From NCBI GenBank assembly GCA_019058295.1, contig JAHPZI010000026.1:1-64000 (forward strand): 64,000 nucleotides of DNA, written 5' to 3'. The stretch's first letter is position 1, and the number at the start of each line of letters is the position of its first letter. Positions 1,378 through 26,550 of this stretch are shown here, piece after piece. The translations under genes were made by a program, and so were the position numbers. Origin of the DNA: Promethearchaeota archaeon (lineage in GTDB: Archaea; Asgardarchaeota; Lokiarchaeia; Sigyniarchaeales; SOKP01). Under the pieces are notes generated by a model. That model was given only the letters and a program-made list of their open reading frames with translations, was not told the origin of the DNA and searched no databases.

Positions 1378-1598
1378 AATTAATCACATAATAAATTTTT
1401 AGTTCCATTTCTAATTATGTTATATGTAGAAAACCGCTTATTTTAAAAGCAATAGACTTAAAAATTTCTAATTTCTATTATATTTTTTTTCATAGAATAA
1501 TAAAAAAAGAGACTTTTTCAATATTCTTTAAATTTATTTTTTAATGCTGGTTTGTTGGATAAAGAAGTCTTGAGTTTAAAAAGAATTCAAATAAACTC

Positions 1599-7461: not shown

Positions 7462-8460
7462 ATGAAAGAAATAACAAAGAGAATTTTGATCGGAATCTCT
7501 ACAATAATGTTAATTATTGTCATGATTCTCTATGTTGATATAAAGGAAATTCTAAATAATTTAAATAAAATTTCATTATTAGGTATATTCCTATTTATTC
7601 TGATTTATACAACCACATTTATTTTACGTTCATTTAAACTAAAACAGGTATATCACGGCTTAAATCTTAAATCTTCACTCTTAATATTATATTGTTCCTA
7701 TGGTGTTGGATTTGCCATTAATGAATTAACACCAGGTAAATTTGGGGACCTAGCAAGAATTGAATTTATACAACAAAAGGAAAAAGATATATCATTATCT
7801 AAGAGTCTTTGTGGTGTATCAATCGAGAGATTTATAGATTTACTAGTACTGTTTTCATTTATTAGTTTAGTTACTATTTATTTATATTTAAATAAATTCA
7901 AGGGAACTTCCAATCTAAACTTACATATTTATTTAGGTATTGGTGCACTTATCCTATGTGGAGCCATAGTGATGTTAATTTTACTTTTTTTCACATCTGA
8001 TTGGATATTAAATATTATTGGTAAGATTTCTTCAAAGTTTAAGCATAGATTGGAGCTTTTTCTTGAGAATTTTTTGAACGGAGTAAATGAATTTAGAAAA
8101 AATAAGAAAAGTTTAATTAAAGTTATTATCTTGAGTTTTCCAACATGGTTTTTAGATACACTTACTCTCGTGCTTCTTTTTTATTTAATTGGATATGAAA
8201 TTCATATATTCATAATTATAATGGCTCAAATAATAGTATTCTTTACAAAAGCATTTCCAATTACCCCCGGTGGATGGATTATTTCGGAAAATGTAGGTTC
8301 CTTATTAATTTTTTTATTTTATCCATCAATTCCTTATAATATTATTTTATCTATTTTTATTTTGGATCATTTAATAAGATCAGCCTATATATTTGTTTAT
8401 GGAGTATTTTCTTCTGTTGGTTTTAATTTTAAATTTGAAAAAATGACAAAACAGATTTAA
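7462..8460 (+). CDS. Flippase-like membrane protein (lysylphosphatidylglycerol synthase TM / UPF0104)
   Basis: N.LTPGKFGDLAR, SIERFID, PITPGG motifs; multiple TM helices. Confidence 0.88.
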   Translation: MKEITKRILIGISTIMLIIVMILYVDIKEILNNLNKISLLGIFLFILIYTTTFILRSFKLKQVYHGLNLKSSLLILYCSYGVGFAINELTPGKFGDLARIEFIQQKEKDISLSKSLCGVSIERFIDLLVLFSFISLVTIYLYLNKFKGTSNLNLHIYLGIGALILCGAIVMLILLFFTSDWILNIIGKISSKFKHRLELFLENFLNGVNEFRKNKKSLIKVIILSFPTWFLDTLTLVLLFYLIGYEIHIFIIIMAQIIVFFTKAFPITPGGWIISENVGSLLIFLFYPSIPYNIILSIFILDHLIRSAYIFVYGVFSSVGFNFKFEKMTKQI

Positions 8461-8518
8461 AGGAACCAAAACAGAATATATAGGATGGATTAAAGAGATT
8501 TTAGGACTTTAATTCATA

Positions 8519-8635
8519 TTAAAACAGGAGAATAATTACTAAAATTGATAATAATATTCCAATTAAGGAAAAAAATAATGCCATAAGAAGATTATCTACT
8601 TTTATCTCCCTTTTTATCAATCTTAAATTTAAATT
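8519..8635 (-). pseudogene. 3' remnant of a third GT-C paralogue
   Basis: Translates NLNLRLIKREIKVDNLLMALFFSLIGILLSILVIILLF*, aligning with the C-terminus KLNLGFIKREIIVNNHMLTFYLSFIGVFYSILIIIFYL* of 9971-11020. Confidence 0.8.
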
Positions 8636-8731
8636 GCTTAAGAGATTTATGTACTTATTTTAATAAGTTTAAGTTATTGATTACAATGAAAAAAACTCTG
8701 AATTAGTATAATAAAAAATATTTTCATTAAA

Positions 8732-9793
8732 TTAATAGATTGGAGTTTTAAAAATAAATATAATTATAATATATGATAAAAATACTCCAATAAATGACAA
8801 ATAAAAGGTCAGCAGATGATTATTTACTATTATTTTTTTTTTCATAAATTTTAAATTCAATTTAAACCTAAAAAATTCTCTCTCCTTTAAAATTCCGTAA
8901 AATATTATGGATTGAAACCATCGTAAATATGGCCAGCTGAAAAATAAATAAGTACCGAGCGCAACCATTGAAATTATGATTATTTCAAAAATATCAGAAT
9001 TTTTTAATCTAAATAAAAGAAATAAAATAAATATACATATAAAAGGAATTAATCTTATATATATAGGCACATAAGACCCTCTCTCATTCCACTCTGCTAA
9101 TGATTGATAATAGTAAGGTAAGTAAAAAAGGGGTAAAACTATAAAAATGAAAATTAATAACGGGATAATGGTAAGAGAAATTTTTAAATCTTTCCAGTCT
9201 TTTTCATATAGAAATTTAATAATAAGAAATCCTATTGCTGGTATGGTATAAAACTTAATACACATTGATAAACCTATAAAGATATAAAATAGATATCTCG
9301 CATAGATCTCTTTTTTTGGGTAAAATATCAATGCTAATAAGAAAAAGAAGAAGAAGAAAGAATCTGTAATATGATATCCGCAATTTTCTAAGCTAAAGGA
9401 ATTATTTAGAAACCAAAACGGATTTAGTAAAAATAAAGCAAATGCATATTTTGGATTATTAATGTTAAAACTTTTTATAACAAAATAGAACATAAAACAT
9501 GTCAATAAGTCCCAAAAAAAAGCCCAAAAAACAAAAACTTCAAACCTTCCAAAAGATAAAAACACAAATACCAAAATAAAAATTTGAGTCAGTATCGGAT
9601 AACCTCCCCATTGCTTAGAATAATTTAATTGAACATCTCCCCAAGATTTTTGAGGATTTAACATATGGAAATAATAATAATAAAATAACATAATTATTCT
9701 TGCCATAATACCTAAAAAAATAAAGATTAAAGCCTTTTTGGCAAAAATTTTATCCAGTATTCTTTTTTCTTCTATAATAACATCATTTTCCAT
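8732..9793 (-). CDS. Polytopic membrane protein, probable GT-C glycosyltransferase (GT87/PIG-M-like), paralogue 1
   Basis: WGD in first loop, WDLLT, LLNP, IKFYT; ~10 TM segments; next to GT2 and flippase. Confidence 0.65.
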   Translation of the reverse strand: MENDVIIEEKRILDKIFAKKALIFIFLGIMARIIMLFYYYYFHMLNPQKSWGDVQLNYSKQWGGYPILTQIFILVFVFLSFGRFEVFVFWAFFWDLLTCFMFYFVIKSFNINNPKYAFALFLLNPFWFLNNSFSLENCGYHITDSFFFFFFLLALIFYPKKEIYARYLFYIFIGLSMCIKFYTIPAIGFLIIKFLYEKDWKDLKISLTIIPLLIFIFIVLPLFYLPYYYQSLAEWNERGSYVPIYIRLIPFICIFILFLLFRLKNSDIFEIIIISMVALGTYLFFSWPYLRWFQSIIFYGILKEREFFRFKLNLKFMKKKIIVNNHLLTFYLSFIGVFLSYIIIIFIFKTPIY

Positions 9794-17573: not shown

Positions 17574-19331
17574 TTACCTAAAAATTTTTACTCCACGTTT
17601 CTCTAATTTCTCTAATGAGTCTGGGAATGTAATGATATTATTTTTTTCTAAATTAAGATATTTAAGTGATGAGAGTGACTCTATCGACTCTGGCAAGGTT
17701 GTCAAGGTGTTAGCTCTTAAAAATAAATATTTGAGAGACGAGAGAGAACCAATAGTCTTCGGAAGTTCCGTTAAATTATTATTGCCTAAATATAAATATT
17801 TTAAAGAGTGGAGTGAACCTATTGAGTCTGGGATTTTTTCTAATTTATTATAATAACAGTACAAATATTTTAGTGAATTAAGGGTCCCAATTGAATTAGG
17901 AATCTTAATTAAATGATTCTTTCCTAAATCTAATATTTCAAGTGTAAAGAGAGAACCTATTGAATCGGGTATAGTTTCTAATTTATTAAATCCTAAGATT
18001 AAAGTTTTTAATTTATGAAGAGATCCTATGGATGCTGTTAGAGTGGTTAATTTATTACTTGATAAATCTATTTCTTTTAAAGAAGATATCTGTCCTATTG
18101 ATTCTGGGAGCATTCTAATGTTGTTTTTACTCAAATCTAAGATTTCTAATGAAGATAGAGATCCTATCGATTTAGGTAACTCCTTTAACAAATTATCATA
18201 TAAATCAAGTTCTTTGAGTGAAGTAAGCAACCCAATTGATTCAGGAAGCGTTTCCAGACGATTAAGACCAATTTTTAATTCTTCAAGTGAAACAATTTTT
18301 CCTATTGATTCTGGAAGATTATTTAGATAATTTCTCTGCAAATTTAATCGTCTTAGGGATCTTAATCCTCCTATTGTATCTGGAAGTGATTCTATTTTAT
18401 TATTATGGATGTCTAATCTCATTAATGATTTTAAATTGCCTATAGATTCAGGTAATTCAGTTAAATAATTAGATGATAAACTTATATTCTCTATAGATGA
18501 AAGTGAACCTATAGTCTTTGGAATAGATTTTAGCATATTTTCCATCAAACCTAAATATTTAAGGTTGCTAAGAGCTCCTATTGATTCTGGTAAAGTTTCT
18601 ATATTATTTCCTTTTAAAAACAAAGCCGTTAAAGAGGTTAATGAACCTATCGATTTAAAAATAGATTTTAAATTATTATTTCTTATATTGAGTCTTTTTA
18701 GTGATTTTAATGAACCAATAGATTCAGGTAAAGTTGATAATTCATTATTTCCCAAATACAATATTTCTAATGAAAAAAGAGAATTGATGGATGTTTTAAA
18801 AATTTCAAGTTTATTTCCACTTAAATCTAGTGTTTTTAAATTTGATAAATTGTTTAAAGATGAGGGTATATCCTTTAAATAATTCTCGCTTAAATCCAAG
18901 AATTCTAAAGAAGAGAGAGATCCTAAAGATTCTGGTAAAGATACTAAATTATTCGATTCTAGGTGTAATTCCTTTAAGGAGGAAAGATTACCTATTGATT
19001 CAGGCAATTCTGATAAGTGATTCTCACTAAAATCTAAAATTTCAAGAGAATCGAATGAAAAAATTTCATCAGGAACATTCTCTAAATAATTTCCTCTTAA
19101 ATATAACTCTTTAAGAAAACTCAAAGAATTTATTGATTTTGGAATAGAGGTTAATCCACAAGAAAAGAGTCCTAATCCAGAGATATGACCTTCATGAACA
19201 AAAAAACCAATGTTATAATATTGAAGTTCAGTGAGTTCAGGTAAAGATGTTCCAATTATTTTTTCTAAAACTCCAATTACTTCTTTTTCTTCCACTGGAA
19301 TTAAATCTTCAGAAGTTCTTTCTTCTGGCAT
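17574..19331 (-). CDS. Leucine-rich repeat protein (~22-23 repeats of 23 aa)
   Basis: Repeated LxxLxLxxNxLxxLPESIGxL. Confidence 0.97.
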   Translation of the reverse strand: MPEERTSEDLIPVEEKEVIGVLEKIIGTSLPELTELQYYNIGFFVHEGHISGLGLFSCGLTSIPKSINSLSFLKELYLRGNYLENVPDEIFSFDSLEILDFSENHLSELPESIGNLSSLKELHLESNNLVSLPESLGSLSSLEFLDLSENYLKDIPSSLNNLSNLKTLDLSGNKLEIFKTSINSLFSLEILYLGNNELSTLPESIGSLKSLKRLNIRNNNLKSIFKSIGSLTSLTALFLKGNNIETLPESIGALSNLKYLGLMENMLKSIPKTIGSLSSIENISLSSNYLTELPESIGNLKSLMRLDIHNNKIESLPDTIGGLRSLRRLNLQRNYLNNLPESIGKIVSLEELKIGLNRLETLPESIGLLTSLKELDLYDNLLKELPKSIGSLSSLEILDLSKNNIRMLPESIGQISSLKEIDLSSNKLTTLTASIGSLHKLKTLILGFNKLETIPDSIGSLFTLEILDLGKNHLIKIPNSIGTLNSLKYLYCYYNKLEKIPDSIGSLHSLKYLYLGNNNLTELPKTIGSLSSLKYLFLRANTLTTLPESIESLSSLKYLNLEKNNIITFPDSLEKLEKRGVKIFR

Positions 19332-20324: not shown

Positions 20325-20720
20325 ATGTCTAAAGAGCCCAATATTGATGATTTAAAATCTAAAATAGGATTTGGAATAAAGATATGGTTAGAATTTGGTT
20401 CTATTGATAAAAAAAAGAATATTTTGGGTTCTGGATGGGCAAAACTTTTAGAAAATTTAGATAAAAACATGAGTGGATCATTGACTCAAGCTGCTGAAGA
20501 ATGTGGATATTCGTATAAATATGCTTGGAATATTTTAAAGCGCATTGAAAAACGTACTGGAATGTCAGTTGTTAATACTGGGAAAGGTGGACGAGGTGGT
20601 GGGGGTTATGTCGAATTAAATGAATGGGGGAAATATCTTTTAAAAACTTATAATAATTTACTATTTGAACTTGAAATAATAGAAAAAAGACTTGGAGAAA
20701 CTTTTAAAATTAATGAATAA
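20325..20720 (+). CDS. ModE-type winged-helix regulator (stand-alone)
   Basis: LGSG..KLL...GSLTQAA...GYSYKYAW...GGRGGG. Confidence 0.88.
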   Translation: MSKEPNIDDLKSKIGFGIKIWLEFGSIDKKKNILGSGWAKLLENLDKNMSGSLTQAAEECGYSYKYAWNILKRIEKRTGMSVVNTGKGGRGGGGYVELNEWGKYLLKTYNNLLFELEIIEKRLGETFKINE

Positions 20721-21016: not shown

Positions 21017-22501
21017 ATGGCTTTACCGCTTCCAGGAACACCAGTTATAATTGATATCGGTAGTGCTTATGTTAAATTAGGTTTTGCTGGTGAACCTACA
21101 CCTCGTTTTGTTTTTCCTTCTATTGTTGGTACTGAAAAATATAGAGCAGTAATGGTTGATGTTGGCGGTCAAAGGAATTATTACGTTGGAAATGATGCCA
21201 TGAAAATGAGGGGCGTCCTTAAAGTAAATTATCCTATACAGAGAGGCGCGATTATGGATTGGGAGGCGTACTACGAGATTTTAAACTATATTTTTTATAC
21301 TTTACTTAGAATAGAGAATCTTTCAAATTATCCCATAATATATGCTGAGCATCCTTTTGTACCAAGAGAAACTAAAGAATTTATAGCAAGAGTTTTGTTC
21401 GAAACGCATAAAGTTAATTCTTTAATAATGTTGCAATCCCCATTTTTATCAATGTTTTCCGTTGGGTTGACAACGGGATTGGTAATTGAGAGTGGGGACG
21501 GGCTAACTTGGATTGTTCCAATAGTTAATGGGATTATCCAACAACAAGCAATCCAAAAGTTAAATCTTGCTGGAATAGATGTAAATCACAATTTAAGAAC
21601 GTTAATGATGAGAGAAGGAATTAACATTGAATCTTCAGCAGCAGCAGAAATATTAAAAGAAATAAAAGAAAAAAACTGCTATTTTGTATTAGATCCTCAA
21701 TCTCCTCCACTTTCGCAAGGGTCCTTCGCGTATCCAATGCCTGATGGCTCGGTTAAACAAATTCCAAGTAATGTTTTGCATGAAGCTCCTGAGGTTATGT
21801 TTCAACCTGGTATGTTAGGTTATAATATAATGAATATCCCCCAGGCGATAATATATTGTTTACAAATGATGGATAAAGCCTATTGGAGTGACTTATTATC
21901 ACACATTGTACTTTCAGGCGGGAACCTCTCTTATAGCGGATTTGAAGAACGATTGAAACAGGAATTGATGACCCTTTTGCCTCAGTTGGGACCTATTCCT
22001 AAAGCTCAAGTTCAGCCAACTCCTATTGGCAGCCAAGAGCCTAAGCTTGAAGCAATTAAAGTAAAAGAAAAAACAATAGACACATGTCCTGAATGTGGTG
22101 AATTAGTAGACTTATCTGGTGGGGGGGAGTCCTGTCCTTCTTGTGGAGCGAGTATGAAATTGCCACAATTATCCATAGATATAGGAAAGTCAATTGATAA
22201 GAAATCGAGGAAATGTCCCCATTGTAATAAAAAAATTATGGATGCATCATCTGTCTTTTGTCCATTCTGTGGAAAAGGAATTGCTGATAACTTTTCTAGT
22301 GTGAAAGAGTTTACAGATATCTCAGATTCAGATGAGGTTATTAAATTTTTTGTTCCTGATAATCTTCAATATGCTATTTTTAATGGATCCGCAATACTTG
22401 GAAGCCTTCCAAGCTTTCAGAATCTATTCGTTACATACGACGAATTTCAAAGTAATACAAATGCCTTATACAGAGAGATTTCTGATGTTTTTAAAATATA
22501 G
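21017..22501 (+). CDS. Actin family protein with inserted double zinc ribbon
   Basis: IIDIGSAYVKLGFAGE..P.FVFPSIVG, YPIQRG, IESGDG, NLAG, IKEKNCY, PDG, IVLSGG, GSAILGSL; four CxxC motifs in residues 357-418. Confidence 0.95.
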   Translation: MALPLPGTPVIIDIGSAYVKLGFAGEPTPRFVFPSIVGTEKYRAVMVDVGGQRNYYVGNDAMKMRGVLKVNYPIQRGAIMDWEAYYEILNYIFYTLLRIENLSNYPIIYAEHPFVPRETKEFIARVLFETHKVNSLIMLQSPFLSMFSVGLTTGLVIESGDGLTWIVPIVNGIIQQQAIQKLNLAGIDVNHNLRTLMMREGINIESSAAAEILKEIKEKNCYFVLDPQSPPLSQGSFAYPMPDGSVKQIPSNVLHEAPEVMFQPGMLGYNIMNIPQAIIYCLQMMDKAYWSDLLSHIVLSGGNLSYSGFEERLKQELMTLLPQLGPIPKAQVQPTPIGSQEPKLEAIKVKEKTIDTCPECGELVDLSGGGESCPSCGASMKLPQLSIDIGKSIDKKSRKCPHCNKKIMDASSVFCPFCGKGIADNFSSVKEFTDISDSDEVIKFFVPDNLQYAIFNGSAILGSLPSFQNLFVTYDEFQSNTNALYREISDVFKI

Positions 22502-22632: not shown

Positions 22633-23787
22633 TTGAAAATATCGAAAATTCGATTATTAACAATTTTTATGTTATTCCTTGTGATCTCTTTAAGTTTATC
22701 ACCATTCGCATTAGCAAAAACACGAAAAACGTATTTATCTGATTTTCTCTTAGATAATTTTATCGATGATGAAGGTTTTTCAAACTGCAATAGAGAGGAA
22801 TATCGTGAGGATAGTGATGAGGTATCATACGAAGCAACCGCTTATGCTTTAGAAATTCTTGGAGGTTATAATTTGTTAGAACAGAAAGATCTATTTGGAA
22901 AAGTCGAAAAGAGCTATAATTCTTCAGATCTTCAAGAAGATTTAGAAAAAACCCTTGATTCTATGTATGGTTCTGGTTTTGAAGATATTTATGATACATA
23001 TTATATTTTAAAATCATTAGAAGATATGGATGTTGAAATCGATGGAACTTTAGCTCTTCAAATTAAACTATATCTCGATGCCACTGCCCAGAGCAATGGA
23101 GGTTTTGCTGGTACAGATACTTCTACATCAGCTACTCTAATTTCAACCTATTTTGCTTTACAAATTTATGACTTACTAGATCAACCTCTTCCAGATCCAA
23201 GAGGTTTTATCTTGTCGTGTGGTAATCCTGATGATGGTGGATATGGAGGTGATCCTACATCTTCCTCAACTATCGCCAATACATATTACGCTATTTTAAT
23301 CATGGATTTTTTAGATGATTTTGGGGCTTTAATCTCAGAGAGTGCGACCATTGATTATCTTAATCAGTTTTATGTTGATGATGAGAATGATGAAGATAAT
23401 TACGGGGGATATTTACCTGATCTAATAAATGCTAAATATGCATTACTTAGTAGTACTTACTATTGTCTAAAAGCCATTTCTTTACTCGATAAAGATGAAA
23501 TAGAAGATGAAGATGCTACCTCAGAATGGCTTTTAGATCGACAGAATTTCCAAGACGGAGGTTTTGTTGATCAAAGTGAAGGATACGAACAAAAATTTTC
23601 TTCAGTAATTAGTACGTATTTTGCCCTAGAAGCGTTAGATTTACTAGGTAAGGAAGATCTATTAGAAGAAAAAGTTTTCATGTTAGAATGGGAATGGTAT
23701 GATTGGTTAATATTCTGTATTATATTGATAGCTCTTATCGCATTGGCTATAATAGGTATTTATATTAGACGAAAAAGAAGATTATAA
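22633..23787 (+). CDS. Secreted, C-terminally anchored prenyltransferase/squalene-cyclase-repeat (alpha/alpha toroid) protein
   Basis: Signal peptide, repeated (D/N)GG(F/Y)...(S/N)TY(F/Y)A(L/I) units, C-terminal TM plus RRKRRL. Confidence 0.8.
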   Translation: MKISKIRLLTIFMLFLVISLSLSPFALAKTRKTYLSDFLLDNFIDDEGFSNCNREEYREDSDEVSYEATAYALEILGGYNLLEQKDLFGKVEKSYNSSDLQEDLEKTLDSMYGSGFEDIYDTYYILKSLEDMDVEIDGTLALQIKLYLDATAQSNGGFAGTDTSTSATLISTYFALQIYDLLDQPLPDPRGFILSCGNPDDGGYGGDPTSSSTIANTYYAILIMDFLDDFGALISESATIDYLNQFYVDDENDEDNYGGYLPDLINAKYALLSSTYYCLKAISLLDKDEIEDEDATSEWLLDRQNFQDGGFVDQSEGYEQKFSSVISTYFALEALDLLGKEDLLEEKVFMLEWEWYDWLIFCIILIALIALAIIGIYIRRKRRL

Positions 23788-23885: not shown

Positions 23886-24755
23886 TTGGTAATAATGGGA
23901 AAAATTCTCGATGGAAGAAAACTGGCAGATAAATTGAATTTAGAATTAAAAAATGAAATTGATGAAGTCATAAAAAGGACAAGAATCAAACCAAAATTAG
24001 CCACAATTTTGGTTGGAGAAGATCCAGCATCAAAAATATATGTGAATATCAAACATAAAACATGTACTCAAGTTGGGATTGAATCATATCAAGTTAATCT
24101 GAGTAAGGATATAAACAAGACAGAATTAATTAATGAAATAGAAAAATTAAATCAAGATGCAAATATTCATGGGATCTTATTACAATTGCCTCTCCCCTTG
24201 AAAATTCGAGACTTTACACCTCAATTTCTTGAAAAAATTTCACCACTTAAAGATGTAGATGGTTTTCATCCTATAAATAGAGGTAAACTCTTTGATTATA
24301 ACGAAGAATTAGCTCCGTGTACCCCTAAAGGCATAATTGCACTGTTAGAACATTATAATGTCGAAATAAAAGGAAAAGATGTAACCATAATTAATCGGTC
24401 CAATCTTGTAGGGAAACCATTGATTTTTATGCTTTTAAAAAGAAATGCTACCCCTACTATATGCCATACATCTACTAAAGACTTAGACCGCTTTATAAAG
24501 CAAGCAGATATTTTAGTAGTCGCTGTAAGCCGACCAAAATTTATTTCTAAAGAAAAAATTAAAGAAGGTGTGATAATAATTGATGTCGGAACCAATAGGG
24601 TAGAAGGTAAATTATGTGGAGATGTAGACTTTGAAGATGTATTAGAAAAAGTTAGTATGATTACGCCAGTTCCAGGTGGTGTTGGTCCGATGACTGTAAG
24701 TTATTTACTTCAAAATACTTTCAATGTGTTTAAAAAACAAATAAATATAAATTAA
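23886..24755 (+). CDS. folD: Methylenetetrahydrofolate dehydrogenase/cyclohydrolase
   Basis: ILDG, GEDPAS..YV..K, GILLQLPLP, KDVDG, PCTP, RSNLVGKP, TPVPGGVGPMT. Confidence 0.97.
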   Translation: MVIMGKILDGRKLADKLNLELKNEIDEVIKRTRIKPKLATILVGEDPASKIYVNIKHKTCTQVGIESYQVNLSKDINKTELINEIEKLNQDANIHGILLQLPLPLKIRDFTPQFLEKISPLKDVDGFHPINRGKLFDYNEELAPCTPKGIIALLEHYNVEIKGKDVTIINRSNLVGKPLIFMLLKRNATPTICHTSTKDLDRFIKQADILVVAVSRPKFISKEKIKEGVIIIDVGTNRVEGKLCGDVDFEDVLEKVSMITPVPGGVGPMTVSYLLQNTFNVFKKQININ

Positions 24756-24866: not shown

Positions 24867-25319
24867 ATGGCTGTCCTTGAATGCGGAATTAATATAGGTA
24901 ATAGAAATTTAATAGAGGTTCGATACTACGCATCATCAGACGTTTTAGATCCAAATCTCCGTGCAGGATTTCTATCTGCTTTAGAAAGTTTTACCACTGA
25001 AGTATTCTCTGACAGCATCAATGTAGTTTCCCTTGCTTCTTTTAAATTAGTTTGTTTCTGTGAGATGGTAGCATTACCCGGTGATGACGAAGATAATACG
25101 CAGCCCCTGTTAGCATATGCCATAATAGAAAAAGAAACTGAGTCAGAAGTAGTCAAACGTCTTTTAAATCAGATTATTATGACTTTTACTAATCGCTATT
25201 CTGTCTTAGATATTTTCGAAAAGAAACCTAAATATTTCAGAAAATTTGATATAAGGATTAGCGATATTCTTGGTGATTTAAAAATGAAAACAGAAGACCG
25301 GTTCAAATCTCTCTTCTAA
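24867..25319 (+). CDS. Longin-like domain protein
   Basis: ~150 aa; beta-beta-helix (LRAGFLSALESFTTEVF)-three strands-helices pattern typical of longin domains. Confidence 0.65.
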   Translation: MAVLECGINIGNRNLIEVRYYASSDVLDPNLRAGFLSALESFTTEVFSDSINVVSLASFKLVCFCEMVALPGDDEDNTQPLLAYAIIEKETESEVVKRLLNQIIMTFTNRYSVLDIFEKKPKYFRKFDIRISDILGDLKMKTEDRFKSLF

Positions 25320-25356: not shown

Positions 25357-26550
25357 TTGAGTTCGAATATTGGACCTGAAGCGCAAGCTGCTTACCAGAA
25401 ATATCTTGATGCTGGGACTTTAGATGAAAAAATTAAGAGATTAGAAGAATTTCTCTCTCTAGTTCCTAAACATAAAGCAACCGAGAGAATTGTAGCTCTC
25501 AATAGATCTCGTCTCGCTAAATTAAAGCGTCAACAAGAAGAACATAAACAGAGATTGAAATCCTTAGGTAAAAAAAGTCCATTTTCAATCAAAAAAGAAG
25601 GTATTCAAGTAATTCTGATAAGTGATTATTATAATCCAGGTGTTGGAAAGAGTTCAATTTTAAATTACTTAACCGGGGCAGCTAAAAAGAAAATTGGTAA
25701 ATTTACGTCAATTCCTGAAATAGGGATATATAAATTTAAAAAAATAAAATTTCAAATTGTTGAGATGCCCTCCATAATGGAAGGTGCGTCAAAAGGAGTA
25801 GGCAATGGTAAAGAAATTCTTGCACAAATTAGGTCCTCAGATTTAATCTGTATTTGTATTGATTTATCACGAAATTTTGAAAATCAGATGAATTTAATAC
25901 TAACCGAACTTTCTAACGCAGATATTAAAATAAATGATCCTCCTCCCCCTATAACTATTGAAAAAACGGGTTCCAACAAAATCCAAATATTTTACTTAAC
26001 AAGTGAAGCTCAAAAAATGGAAAACATGGAGGATTTAAACGAAAAAATAATTGAAGTTGTTCAAGAAGCTGGAATCCGAAATGGAATTGTAAAAATTTAT
26101 GGTGAAATCAATCTTGATCAAGTTGTAGACGCTTTAACTCCTTCAGTAGTATATAAAAATGCATTAATTTTAGGAACTAAAGGAGATCTCCCTCACACTG
26201 AAACTGCTTATATTGATTTAAAAAACCAATATTCTTCTCAATTTCCACTAATTTTTGGTACAAGTGTTAAGAAAAACAACTTTCCTAACAATTTTGGAGA
26301 TATTATATTAGAAATTTTGAAAAAAATAAAGATTTACACTATGAACATTTCTGGAAAAGTTGCTGAGAAACCTCTTATAATGGATAAGGGTGCCACTGTA
26401 AAAGATGTAGCATTTCGGATTCATAAAAGTTTCAAAGAATTATTTGATTATGCCGTAATCGTTAGAGAAGGAGCTCGTCAAAAAAAGAAAAGAGTGGGTA
26501 TAGATTATAAATTAGAAGATAATGATATTATAGAGATTCATACTATTTAA
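25357..26550 (+). CDS. DRG/OBG-family GTPase-like protein with TGS domain, degenerate G motifs
   Basis: PKHKATE N-terminus, PGVGKSS, G.GNGKEIL..IR, TKGD, C-terminal TGS (TVKDVAFRIH...RVG.DY.LED.DIIEIH). Confidence 0.88.
   Translation: MSSNIGPEAQAAYQKYLDAGTLDEKIKRLEEFLSLVPKHKATERIVALNRSRLAKLKRQQEEHKQRLKSLGKKSPFSIKKEGIQVILISDYYNPGVGKSSILNYLTGAAKKKIGKFTSIPEIGIYKFKKIKFQIVEMPSIMEGASKGVGNGKEILAQIRSSDLICICIDLSRNFENQMNLILTELSNADIKINDPPPPITIEKTGSNKIQIFYLTSEAQKMENMEDLNEKIIEVVQEAGIRNGIVKIYGEINLDQVVDALTPSVVYKNALILGTKGDLPHTETAYIDLKNQYSSQFPLIFGTSVKKNNFPNNFGDIILEILKKIKIYTMNISGKVAEKPLIMDKGATVKDVAFRIHKSFKELFDYAVIVREGARQKKKRVGIDYKLEDNDIIEIHTI

What the first reader, a model, noticed from the sequence alone, without database searches (positions are those of the whole stretch)
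21017..22501. Actin homologue carrying a ~118-aa double zinc-ribbon insertion
Seen: a colinear actin core is interrupted between ERLKQELMTLLP and IKFFVP (actin DRMQKEITALAP...IKIIAP). The insert, about residues 323-440 (nt ~21983-22336), has a Pro/Gln linker then CPEC..CPSC and CPHC..CPFC. The Q137 equivalent is retained (IMLQ), but the phosphate-2 Asp is Glu (IESGDG) and the H161 equivalent is Trp. Knowledge: several eukaryotic Arps carry specialising surface insertions. Inference: an Arp-like actin with a built-in interaction module and possibly altered hydrolysis or polymerisation.
Basis: partly seen in the sequence, partly recalled or inferred. Interest (0 to 1): 0.75.

Follow-up and report, generated by a model that had tools for sequence, protein, structure and literature searches.

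The report
Asgard actin relative carrying zinc ribbons
This is a real, intact actin-like gene of Loki-type Asgard archaea with two small zinc-binding modules on flexible tethers spliced into a filament-contact loop and actin's ATP-splitting residues replaced; it is kept across a whole archaeal order, including a cultured strain, but its odd build appears undescribed and its job is untested.

Summary
The ORF 21017-22501 (+, 494 aa) is intact. It is an actin fold (Pfam Actin 3e-71; model TM 0.9 to actin) split by a 115-aa insert (residues 325-439) at the actin 322-326 loop of subdomain 3. The insert holds two C4 zinc ribbons between low-confidence linkers.

It is not chimeric. About 95% of genomes of one Lokiarchaeia order carry it (145 of 153). 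All 8 Cys are invariant in 32 orthologues, and the first ribbon is present in all 52 compared.

One reader detail is wrong. Actin Q137 aligns with Ser141 (S/T in 50 of 52), not with the non-conserved Gln140. With H161 to W, D154 to E and H73 to R, the hydrolysis and sensor residues are gone while the ATP-binding loops stay.

The family is one clade (100/100) outside Lokiactin plus eukaryotic actin/Arp1, and it evolves much faster than Lokiactin.

New here: published primers show the Lokiarchaeum ossiferum copy is GenBank UYP44711.1, one of the three "ARPs" shown transcribed in 2022, and it has only one ribbon. The gene also sits in a conserved cluster: ModE-like regulator, this gene, a membrane-anchored prenyltransferase-beta-like toroid protein, FolD.

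My best reading is a substoichiometric, ATP-bound Lokiactin-associated adaptor or end-binder. This is inference.

This scan found the same family before on other genomes.

The parts
21017..22501 (+). Complete ORF of the zinc-ribbon actin-related protein (494 aa, P0001)
   Evidence: Open frame. The N-terminus MALPLPGTP is conserved in orthologues. Orthologues occur in 145 of 153 genomes of the order.
21017..21988 (+). Actin fold, N-terminal part (residues 1-324: subdomains 1, 2, 4 and most of 3)
   Evidence: Pfam PF00022 matches residues 9-323, E 3.2e-71. pLDDT is mostly above 90. Foldseek TM 0.9 to actin.
21434..21442 (+). Q140-S141-P142. Ser141 is the equivalent of actin Q137 (catalytic Gln lost)
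   Evidence: HMMER alignment. MAFFT site table: S/T in 50 of 52.
21488..21511 (+). Phosphate-2 loop ESGDGLTW (E158 = actin D154; W165 = actin H161)
   Evidence: E in 49 of 52; W in 39 of 52 and never His. Invariant in the close orthologues.
21989..22333 (+). Insert of 115 aa (residues 325-439) in the subdomain-3 loop equivalent to actin 322-326
   Evidence: Lokiactins and actins have 0 residues here. The 52 family members have 97-210 residues.
22076..22156 (+). Zinc ribbon 1 (residues 354-380; C357, C360, C373, C376), acidic, present in every family member
   Evidence: Invariant in all 38 sequences of A2, including 38-48% identity relatives. pLDDT about 73-78. Pfam DZR / Zn_Ribbon.
22208..22279 (+). 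Zinc ribbon 2 (residues 398-421; C400, C403, C415, C418), absent in 5 of 52 relatives
   Evidence: Pfam DUF7575 / Zn_ribbon_3 matches residues 398-421. Missing in family f4 and in the L. ossiferum genus.
22334..22498 (+). Actin fold, C-terminal part (residues 440-494: last strand of subdomain 3 and return to subdomain 1)
   Evidence: Aligns to actin 344-393. pLDDT 88-95.
20325..20720 (+). Conserved upstream neighbour: 131-aa ModE-N-terminal-like winged-helix regulator (association only)
   Evidence: TIGR00637 E 1.7e-15, below cut-off. Found upstream on the same strand in loci of families f1 and f3.
22633..23787 (+). Conserved downstream neighbour: 384-aa protein with an N-terminal signal/anchor helix, an alpha/alpha toroid and a C-terminal membrane helix plus a short basic tail (association only)
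   Evidence: Adjacent in 29 of 31 loci across families f1-f4, down to 24% identity. Pfam Prenyltrans 1.4e-17. The model resembles prenyltransferase beta subunits, TM 0.72.
23886..24755 (+). FolD, the next conserved member of the syntenic block (probably housekeeping)
   Evidence: Pfam THF_DHG_CYH. Synteny.

Best explanation
Shown: the gene encodes an actin-related protein that is specific to one order of Lokiarchaeia and was inherited vertically.

- It keeps the actin fold and the nucleotide-binding loops.
- It has replaced the residues that activate the lytic water and sense phosphate: Q137 to S/T, H161 to W, D154 to E, H73 to R, N111 lost.
- It carries one or two C4 zinc ribbons on flexible, length-variable tethers.
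- These tethers emerge from the subdomain-3 loop that in F-actin touches subdomain 4 of the next subunit on the barbed-end side.

Inferred: it binds ATP but hydrolyses it poorly, and it does not build bulk filaments. It works in substoichiometric amounts with the Lokiactin cytoskeleton. It uses its well-kept pointed-end face (D-loop, MRGVL, PDG) to dock onto Lokiactin. Its altered barbed-end face, with the ribbons, blocks further subunit addition and ties that point to a protein ligand. It would thus be a filament-end binder or anchor. The ligand is unknown. The co-encoded single-pass membrane protein with a short basic tail is a candidate.
For: Identity and conservation
- Actin fold.
- The 8 Cys are invariant. 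The first ribbon is invariant down to 38% identity.
- Present in 145 of 153 genomes of the order and essentially nowhere else in 247 other Asgard genomes.
- One clade with 100/100 support whose internal branching follows the host families.

Nucleotide site
- D11, G13, K18, G156, G158, K213, E214, G301 and G302 are kept.
- Q137, H161, D154, H73 and N111 are replaced.

Tethers
- Linker pLDDT is below 50 and ribbon pLDDT is about 73-78.
- Insert length varies from 97 to 210 aa.

Surfaces
- Pointed-face elements are invariant or nearly so: Y42 and M46 in the D-loop, R65-G66-V67-L68, P242-D243-G244.
- Barbed-face positions Y169 and I341 are variable, R290 is W and Y294 is L.
- The barbed face is the best-conserved surface between Lokiactin and eukaryotic actin (0.70 identity against 0.59 overall). 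Between this family and Lokiactin it falls below average (0.33 against 0.37).

Low dosage
- The L. ossiferum orthologue is UYP44711.1 (primer match).
- The authors report Lokiactin transcripts severalfold higher than those of the other three homologues (PMC9834061).

Rate and ribbon charge
- Lokiactin is 91% identical between families f1 and f3. This protein is 41% identical.
- Ribbon 1 is acidic by its sequence. This favours a protein ligand over nucleic acid.

Synteny
- Conserved adjacency with the membrane toroid gene in 29 of 31 loci.
Against: There is no biochemical or localisation evidence.

- The difference between pointed and barbed faces is only a trend. Within-family conservation is 0.77 against 0.68 (permutation p about 0.06). 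Identity to Lokiactin is 0.44 against 0.33 (p about 0.22).
- The contact residue lists come from my knowledge of F-actin structures, not from a structure handled here.
- Many groove residues (F147, S148, G150, T152, I460, L461, L464) are still conserved, so the barbed groove may still bind something, including another subunit's D-loop.
- Long flexible tethers could let the insert loop out of a filament contact.
- I could not inspect model coordinates.
- The toroid family is far wider than this actin family (222 of 400 genomes), and FolD is conserved in the same block. The synteny may therefore be inherited gene order rather than function.
Confidence: 0.42

Rival explanations
1. It is a polymerising actin paralogue. 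It forms its own filaments or co-polymerises along Lokiactin filaments, and the ribbons hang off the polymer surface as attachment points.
For: The D-loop and much of the hydrophobic groove are both conserved within the family, as expected if the two faces meet each other. The hydrophobic-plug scaffold F262, P264, G268 is invariant. Long disordered linkers could let the ribbons exit an interface. Arp1 shows that an actin relative can polymerise (established knowledge).
Against: The insert replaces the 323-325 contact residues. Q137 and H161 are lost, Y169 and I341 are variable, and the lateral-contact residues are changed. It evolves fast compared with the filament former Lokiactin. Its transcript is lower than Lokiactin's in L. 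ossiferum. The paper's abstract describes only F-actin-like twisted double-stranded filaments.
Confidence: 0.22
2. It is a non-cytoskeletal monomeric actin-fold module, as nuclear Arp4 and Arp8 are in chromatin remodellers. It would be an ATP-locked scaffold in a multiprotein complex, with the ribbons binding nucleic acid or another protein and no link to Lokiactin.
For: Loss of hydrolysis residues with retained ATP-binding loops resembles structural Arps. Zinc ribbons are common nucleic-acid or protein binders. A small DNA-binding-type regulator is the conserved upstream neighbour.
Against: The universal ribbon 1 is acidic, a poor fit for nucleic acid. The D-loop, a filament-contact element, is among the best-conserved segments. 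No chromatin or RNA gene is in the conserved cluster.
Confidence: 0.15
3. It is an artefact: a chimeric assembly, a gene fusion error or a decaying pseudogene.
For: None found. The source is a 79%-complete metagenome-assembled genome.
Against: The same uninterrupted architecture is seen in more than 120 independent protein clusters and about 145 genomes, including closed single-contig genomes. The Cys are invariant. The stretch is held by contigs from other samples.
Confidence: 0.01

Closest known systems
Lokiactin (conserved Asgard actin; solved relative 'HC1 actin', PDB 9wc4; this genome's copy at G000:C2, locus L001)
   Same: Same fold and colinear core. It is the best solved-structure match (2.6e-72). 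The D-loop (KY..M.DV), the SD2 motif and the PDG loop are shared. Both occur in the same genomes.
   Different: Only about 37% identical. It lies outside the Lokiactin clade. The catalytic Q137 and H161 and the sensor residues H73 and N111 are replaced. It has a 97-210-aa zinc-ribbon insert where Lokiactin has none. It evolves far faster and is confined to one order, whereas the paper reports Lokiactin in all Asgard lineages.
The 'ARPs' of Ca. Lokiarchaeum ossiferum in Rodrigues-Oliveira et al. 2022 (PMC9834061), specifically GenBank UYP44711.1
   Same: It is the orthologue. The paper's qPCR primers for UYP44711.1 lie inside the L. ossiferum family member. In that paper it is placed among Asgard and eukaryotic ARPs and shown to be transcribed.
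   Different: The paper does not mention zinc ribbons, the insert or the catalytic substitutions (0 occurrences of 'zinc'). The L. ossiferum protein has one ribbon; the window's has two.
Eukaryotic Arps with specialising insertions (Arp3, Arp5, Arp8; Arp1/centractin)
   Same: The design principle is shared: an actin core plus lineage-specific surface inserts that change polymerisation and add binding surfaces (established knowledge). Match scores to Arp1 equal those to actin.
   Different: No orthology is shown. It does not group with Arp1. From my own knowledge, untested here, none of these eukaryotic Arps has a zinc-ribbon insert or an insert at the 322-326 loop. Arp2 and Arp3 keep Q137 and H161 (knowledge).
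DZR / zinc-ribbon domains (Pfam PF12773, PF13240, PF13248, PF24460)
   Same: Two CxxC-x(12)-CxxC knuckle pairs. Relatives score above the Pfam cut-off.
   Different: Here the domain is embedded inside another domain's loop rather than at a terminus. The window's own DZR score is 27.1 against a cut-off of 27.3. No function is attached to these families.

Membership tests
Actin family (Pfam PF00022) | Significant match to the family profile over the whole core | tested here: met
   240.5 bits against a cut-off of 27, for residues 9-323 plus the C-terminal piece.
Actin family (Pfam PF00022) | Four-subdomain actin fold | tested here: met
   AlphaFold2 model with core pLDDT above 90. Foldseek TM 0.89-0.92 normalised to actin chains.
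Actin family (Pfam PF00022) | Nucleotide-binding phosphate-1, phosphate-2 and adenosine motifs | tested here: met
   D13, G15, K20, G160, G162, K217, E218, G301 and G302 are invariant or nearly so. Binding itself is not testable here.
Lokiactin (orthologue of the conserved Asgard actin) | Falls inside the Lokiactin clade | tested here: not met
   It forms a separate 100/100 clade with a stem of 0.50 substitutions per site.
Lokiactin (orthologue of the conserved Asgard actin) | Catalytic Q137 and H161 and sensor H73 retained | tested here: not met
   S/T, W and R respectively.
Eukaryotic Arp subfamilies (Arp1-Arp10) | Orthology to one subfamily in a tree | tested here: inconclusive
   It does not group with the two Arp1 sequences included.
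Double zinc ribbon (Pfam DZR PF12773) | Two C4 knuckle pairs matching the profile | tested here: met
   The window protein scores 27.1 bits (cut-off 27.3). Relatives score 32-42 bits. The 8 Cys are invariant.
Double zinc ribbon (Pfam DZR PF12773) | Zinc actually bound | not testable with these tools
   Needs metal analysis of purified protein.
LIM domain (considered because of weak matches to CRP1/CRP2) | Contiguous double finger with fixed spacing and a His ligand | tested here: not met
   The match (E 0.0016) spans the second half of ribbon 1, the variable low-confidence linker and the first half of ribbon 2. That linker varies in length across the family.

The most novel reading that the evidence does not exclude
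This would be the first prokaryotic actin-derived filament-end regulator. An ATP-locked Arp caps or anchors Lokiactin barbed ends. Through its acidic zinc ribbon it clamps the short basic cytoplasmic tail of the co-encoded surface protein, which has an extracellular prenyltransferase-beta-like toroid. Together they would form a transmembrane link between the cell surface and the actin cytoskeleton in the archaea that make actin-filled protrusions.
Probability: 0.15. Interest if true: 0.85.

Novelty: new variant of a known kind. Interest (0 to 1): 0.6.

Why it matters
[quoted passage not shown] What their actin-related proteins do is unknown.

This family is a clean handle on that question:
- It is nearly universal in the order that contains Ca. 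L. ossiferum, a strain grown in enrichment culture.
- It is transcribed there.
- It has an unusual and easily tested design: hydrolysis residues removed, and detachable zinc-ribbon modules at a filament-contact loop.

If it proves to be an end-binder or membrane anchor, it would show that regulating actin filaments with modified actin paralogues, the logic of Arp2/3 and dynactin, arose independently or earlier in archaea. Even if not, it corrects database labels such as 'centractin' or 'zinc ribbon domain protein'.

Tried and rejected
There is no result either way.
- No RNA holder was listed among public runs for the stretch. The holders are sediment metagenomes.
- The atlas feature search with the insert gave only sub-threshold generic DZR clusters.
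- LIM-domain similarity (CRP1, E 0.0016) was rejected as a Cys-spacing artefact across the variable linker.
- Chimeric assembly or pseudogene was rejected.
- A statistical contrast of pointed-face and barbed-face conservation gave only a non-significant trend.
- The idea that the toroid neighbour is restricted to genomes with this actin was rejected. The toroid family is in 222 of 400 Asgard genomes. In three loci outside the order it is not next to the regulator, FolD or an actin.
- Literature searches for zinc ribbon with Asgard actin or ARP found no description.
- NCBIfam gives only far-below-cut-off matches to MamK and crenactin.
- Model coordinates are not exposed, so I could not see where the conserved QLGxIPKP start of the insert packs.

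Full report
**Observation**

The window holds an uninterrupted ORF at 21017..22501 on the + strand, encoding 494 aa. Pfam Actin matches residues 9-323 (E 3.2e-71). DZR and other zinc-ribbon models match residues 357-421. Against solved structures the best match is 'HC1 actin' (9wc4, 2.6e-72), followed by eukaryotic actins and Arp1 at about 1e-65. A second aligned piece joins residues 432-481 to actin 344-393.

A MAFFT alignment with Lokiactins and eukaryotic actin puts the insert between actin positions 324 and 325. In the window protein it is residues 325-439, 115 aa.

One detail is wrong. Actin Q137 aligns with Ser141, not Gln140, in both the HMMER and the MAFFT alignment. Gln140 is Pro in most relatives.

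**Is it real and conserved?**

A word-indexed search returned more than 120 clusters of about 500 aa, all with Actin plus zinc-ribbon Pfam hits at 59-90% identity. Their labels are mostly Promethearchaeota or Lokiarchaeota genomes assembled from metagenomes.

- In 32 of these, all eight Cys are invariant.
- An exhaustive profile-free search of 50%-identity representatives found more distant members at 38-48% identity with the ribbon at the same site. Ribbon 1 stays invariant in them.
- Searching 400 Asgard genomes with the insert plus C-terminal part found it in 145 of 153 genomes of the window's order (four families). It was in 0 of 7 genomes of the other families of the class, and gave only 3 weak hits in about 240 other genomes.

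Chimeric assembly is excluded.

**Link to the literature**

Genome G138 is a single contig of 6,035,313 bp. The RT-qPCR primers published for GenBank UYP44711.1 both match inside its family member (primers from PMC9834061). The other six published primers had no match in the loci I held at that point.

- So the L. ossiferum orthologue is one of the three 'ARPs' of Rodrigues-Oliveira et al. 2022. It was placed with Asgard and eukaryotic ARPs in their tree. The authors report Lokiactin transcripts severalfold higher than those of the other homologues.
- G138 has four actin-family genes, matching the paper's count.
- That paper never mentions zinc. Full-text searches found no description of the architecture.

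**Structure**

An AlphaFold2 model from 38 sequences has mean pLDDT 81. The actin core is mostly above 90, the two ribbons are about 71-78, and the three linkers (333-349, 384-396, 425-439) are below 50. Foldseek gives TM 0.89-0.92 relative to actin chains.

Insert length ranges from 97 to 210 aa across 52 members. Of these, 47 have two ribbons and 5 have one: family f4 and the L. ossiferum genus. The design is conserved ribbons on variable tethers.

The start of the insert (L324, G325, I327, P328) is strongly conserved, and an acidic EF motif (E431, F432) occurs in at least 90% of members.

**Active site and surfaces (52 members)**

- Kept: D11, G13, K18, G156, G158, K213, E214, G301, G302.
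- Replaced: Q137 to S/T (50 of 52), H161 to W/T/F (never His), D154 to E (49), H73 to R (52), N111 to V/M/T.
- I infer nucleotide binding without efficient hydrolysis or phosphate sensing.
- Pointed-end face elements are very well kept: Y42 and M46 in the D-loop, R65-G66-V67-L68, P242-D243-G244.
- On the barbed-end face, Y169 and I341 are variable, R290 is W, Y294 is L, and the 323-325 contact is replaced by the insert.

Within-family conservation is 0.77 for the pointed face and 0.68 for the barbed face (p about 0.06). Identity to Lokiactin is 0.44 against 0.33 (p about 0.22). As a control, between Lokiactin and eukaryotic actin the barbed face is the best-conserved surface (0.70 against 0.59 overall). 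That privilege is lost here (0.33 against 0.37 overall). These are trends, and the contact lists come from my knowledge of F-actin structures.

**Phylogeny**

The tree used IQ-TREE with LG+C20+F+G4, 44 sequences and 376 columns.

- The family is one clade (100/100) on a stem of 0.50.
- It is weakly placed (62/69) as sister to Lokiactins plus eukaryotic actin and Arp1.
- It does not nest in Lokiactin and does not join Arp1.
- Its internal order follows the host families (f4, f2, f1, f3). This indicates vertical descent from the order's ancestor and secondary loss of ribbon 2 in the L. ossiferum genus.
- Terminal branches are 0.1-0.7, against at most 0.07 for the order's Lokiactins.
- Lokiactin is 91% identical between families f1 and f3; this protein is 41%.
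- Eukaryotic Arp2-10 were not available, so sisterhood to those is untested.

**Genomic context**

The block is: a 131-aa ModE-like winged-helix protein, this gene, a 384-aa membrane protein, then FolD.

- It recurs across families f1-f4.
- The membrane protein is adjacent in 29 of 31 loci, even where it is only 24-27% identical.
- That protein has an N-terminal hydrophobic helix, an alpha/alpha toroid resembling prenyltransferase beta subunits (Pfam 1.4e-17; TM 0.72), and a C-terminal membrane helix followed by a 5-8-residue basic tail.
- It has no invariant Cys or His.
- Its family is wider than the actin family (222 of 400 genomes).
- In three loci outside the order it is not next to these genes.

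The association is suggestive but unproven. T-rich sequence after the actin stop codon suggests separate transcription units.

**Interpretation**

The identity is secure: an order-specific, hydrolysis-impaired actin-related protein with tethered zinc ribbons. The mechanism is inferred.

- I favour a low-abundance Lokiactin-associated adaptor or end-binder (0.42).
- The rivals are a polymerising paralogue (0.22) and a non-cytoskeletal scaffold (0.15).

**Earlier findings of this scan**

This scan had already met the family on other genomes and reached matching conclusions. New here are:

- the UYP44711.1 identification;
- the one-ribbon variants;
- the conserved gene cluster and the fold of the neighbour;
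- the surface-conservation comparison.

Noticed in passing
G000 contig C2, locus L001 about 1400-1530 (minus strand); outside the window: The genome's only Lokiactin gene carries two unique inserts of about 30 nt, each with a hairpin, near its 3' end. Read straight through, the frame ends 18 aa early. Skipping both restores the conserved C-terminus. Five congeners lack them. Contigs of two samples hold them, and related strains in three runs (X2, X3, X4) diverge exactly at the first insert. Neither sequence recurs in the genome. The scan already reads them as tRNA-type mini-introns.
   Followed up: partly
window 22633-23787 (+): A membrane-anchored protein whose model resembles the beta subunit of eukaryotic protein prenyltransferases (RabGGTase, GGTase-III; TM 0.72). 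It has DGGF repeats but no conserved Cys or His zinc ligands, a signal-like N-terminus and a C-terminal membrane helix with a basic tail. It is probably an extracellular binding toroid, not an enzyme.
   Followed up: partly
window 24867-25319 (+) and 25357-26550 (+): A 150-aa protein without a Pfam match is conserved just after FolD in family f1 loci. It is followed by a DRG/TGS-type GTPase.
   Followed up: no
L016 (L. ossiferum, gene about 7819-9317, minus) and loci L017, L021, L022: The L. ossiferum genus and family f4 have only the first zinc ribbon. In the tree the L. ossiferum genus nests among two-ribbon relatives, so it lost ribbon 2 secondarily.
   Followed up: yes
G000 contig C23, locus L003: A third, very weak actin-fold hit in the genome (PF00022 18.7 bits, 347-aa frame). 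It may be another divergent actin-superfamily protein.
   Followed up: no
window 17574-19331 (-): A 585-aa protein made almost entirely of leucine-rich repeats, with no other domain.
   Followed up: no
G128 contig C5, loci L049/L052: A 575-aa actin-family protein in a sister family of the class also looks split or extended: its two Actin matches are separated. It is on a very long branch. Its extra sequence was not examined.
   Followed up: no
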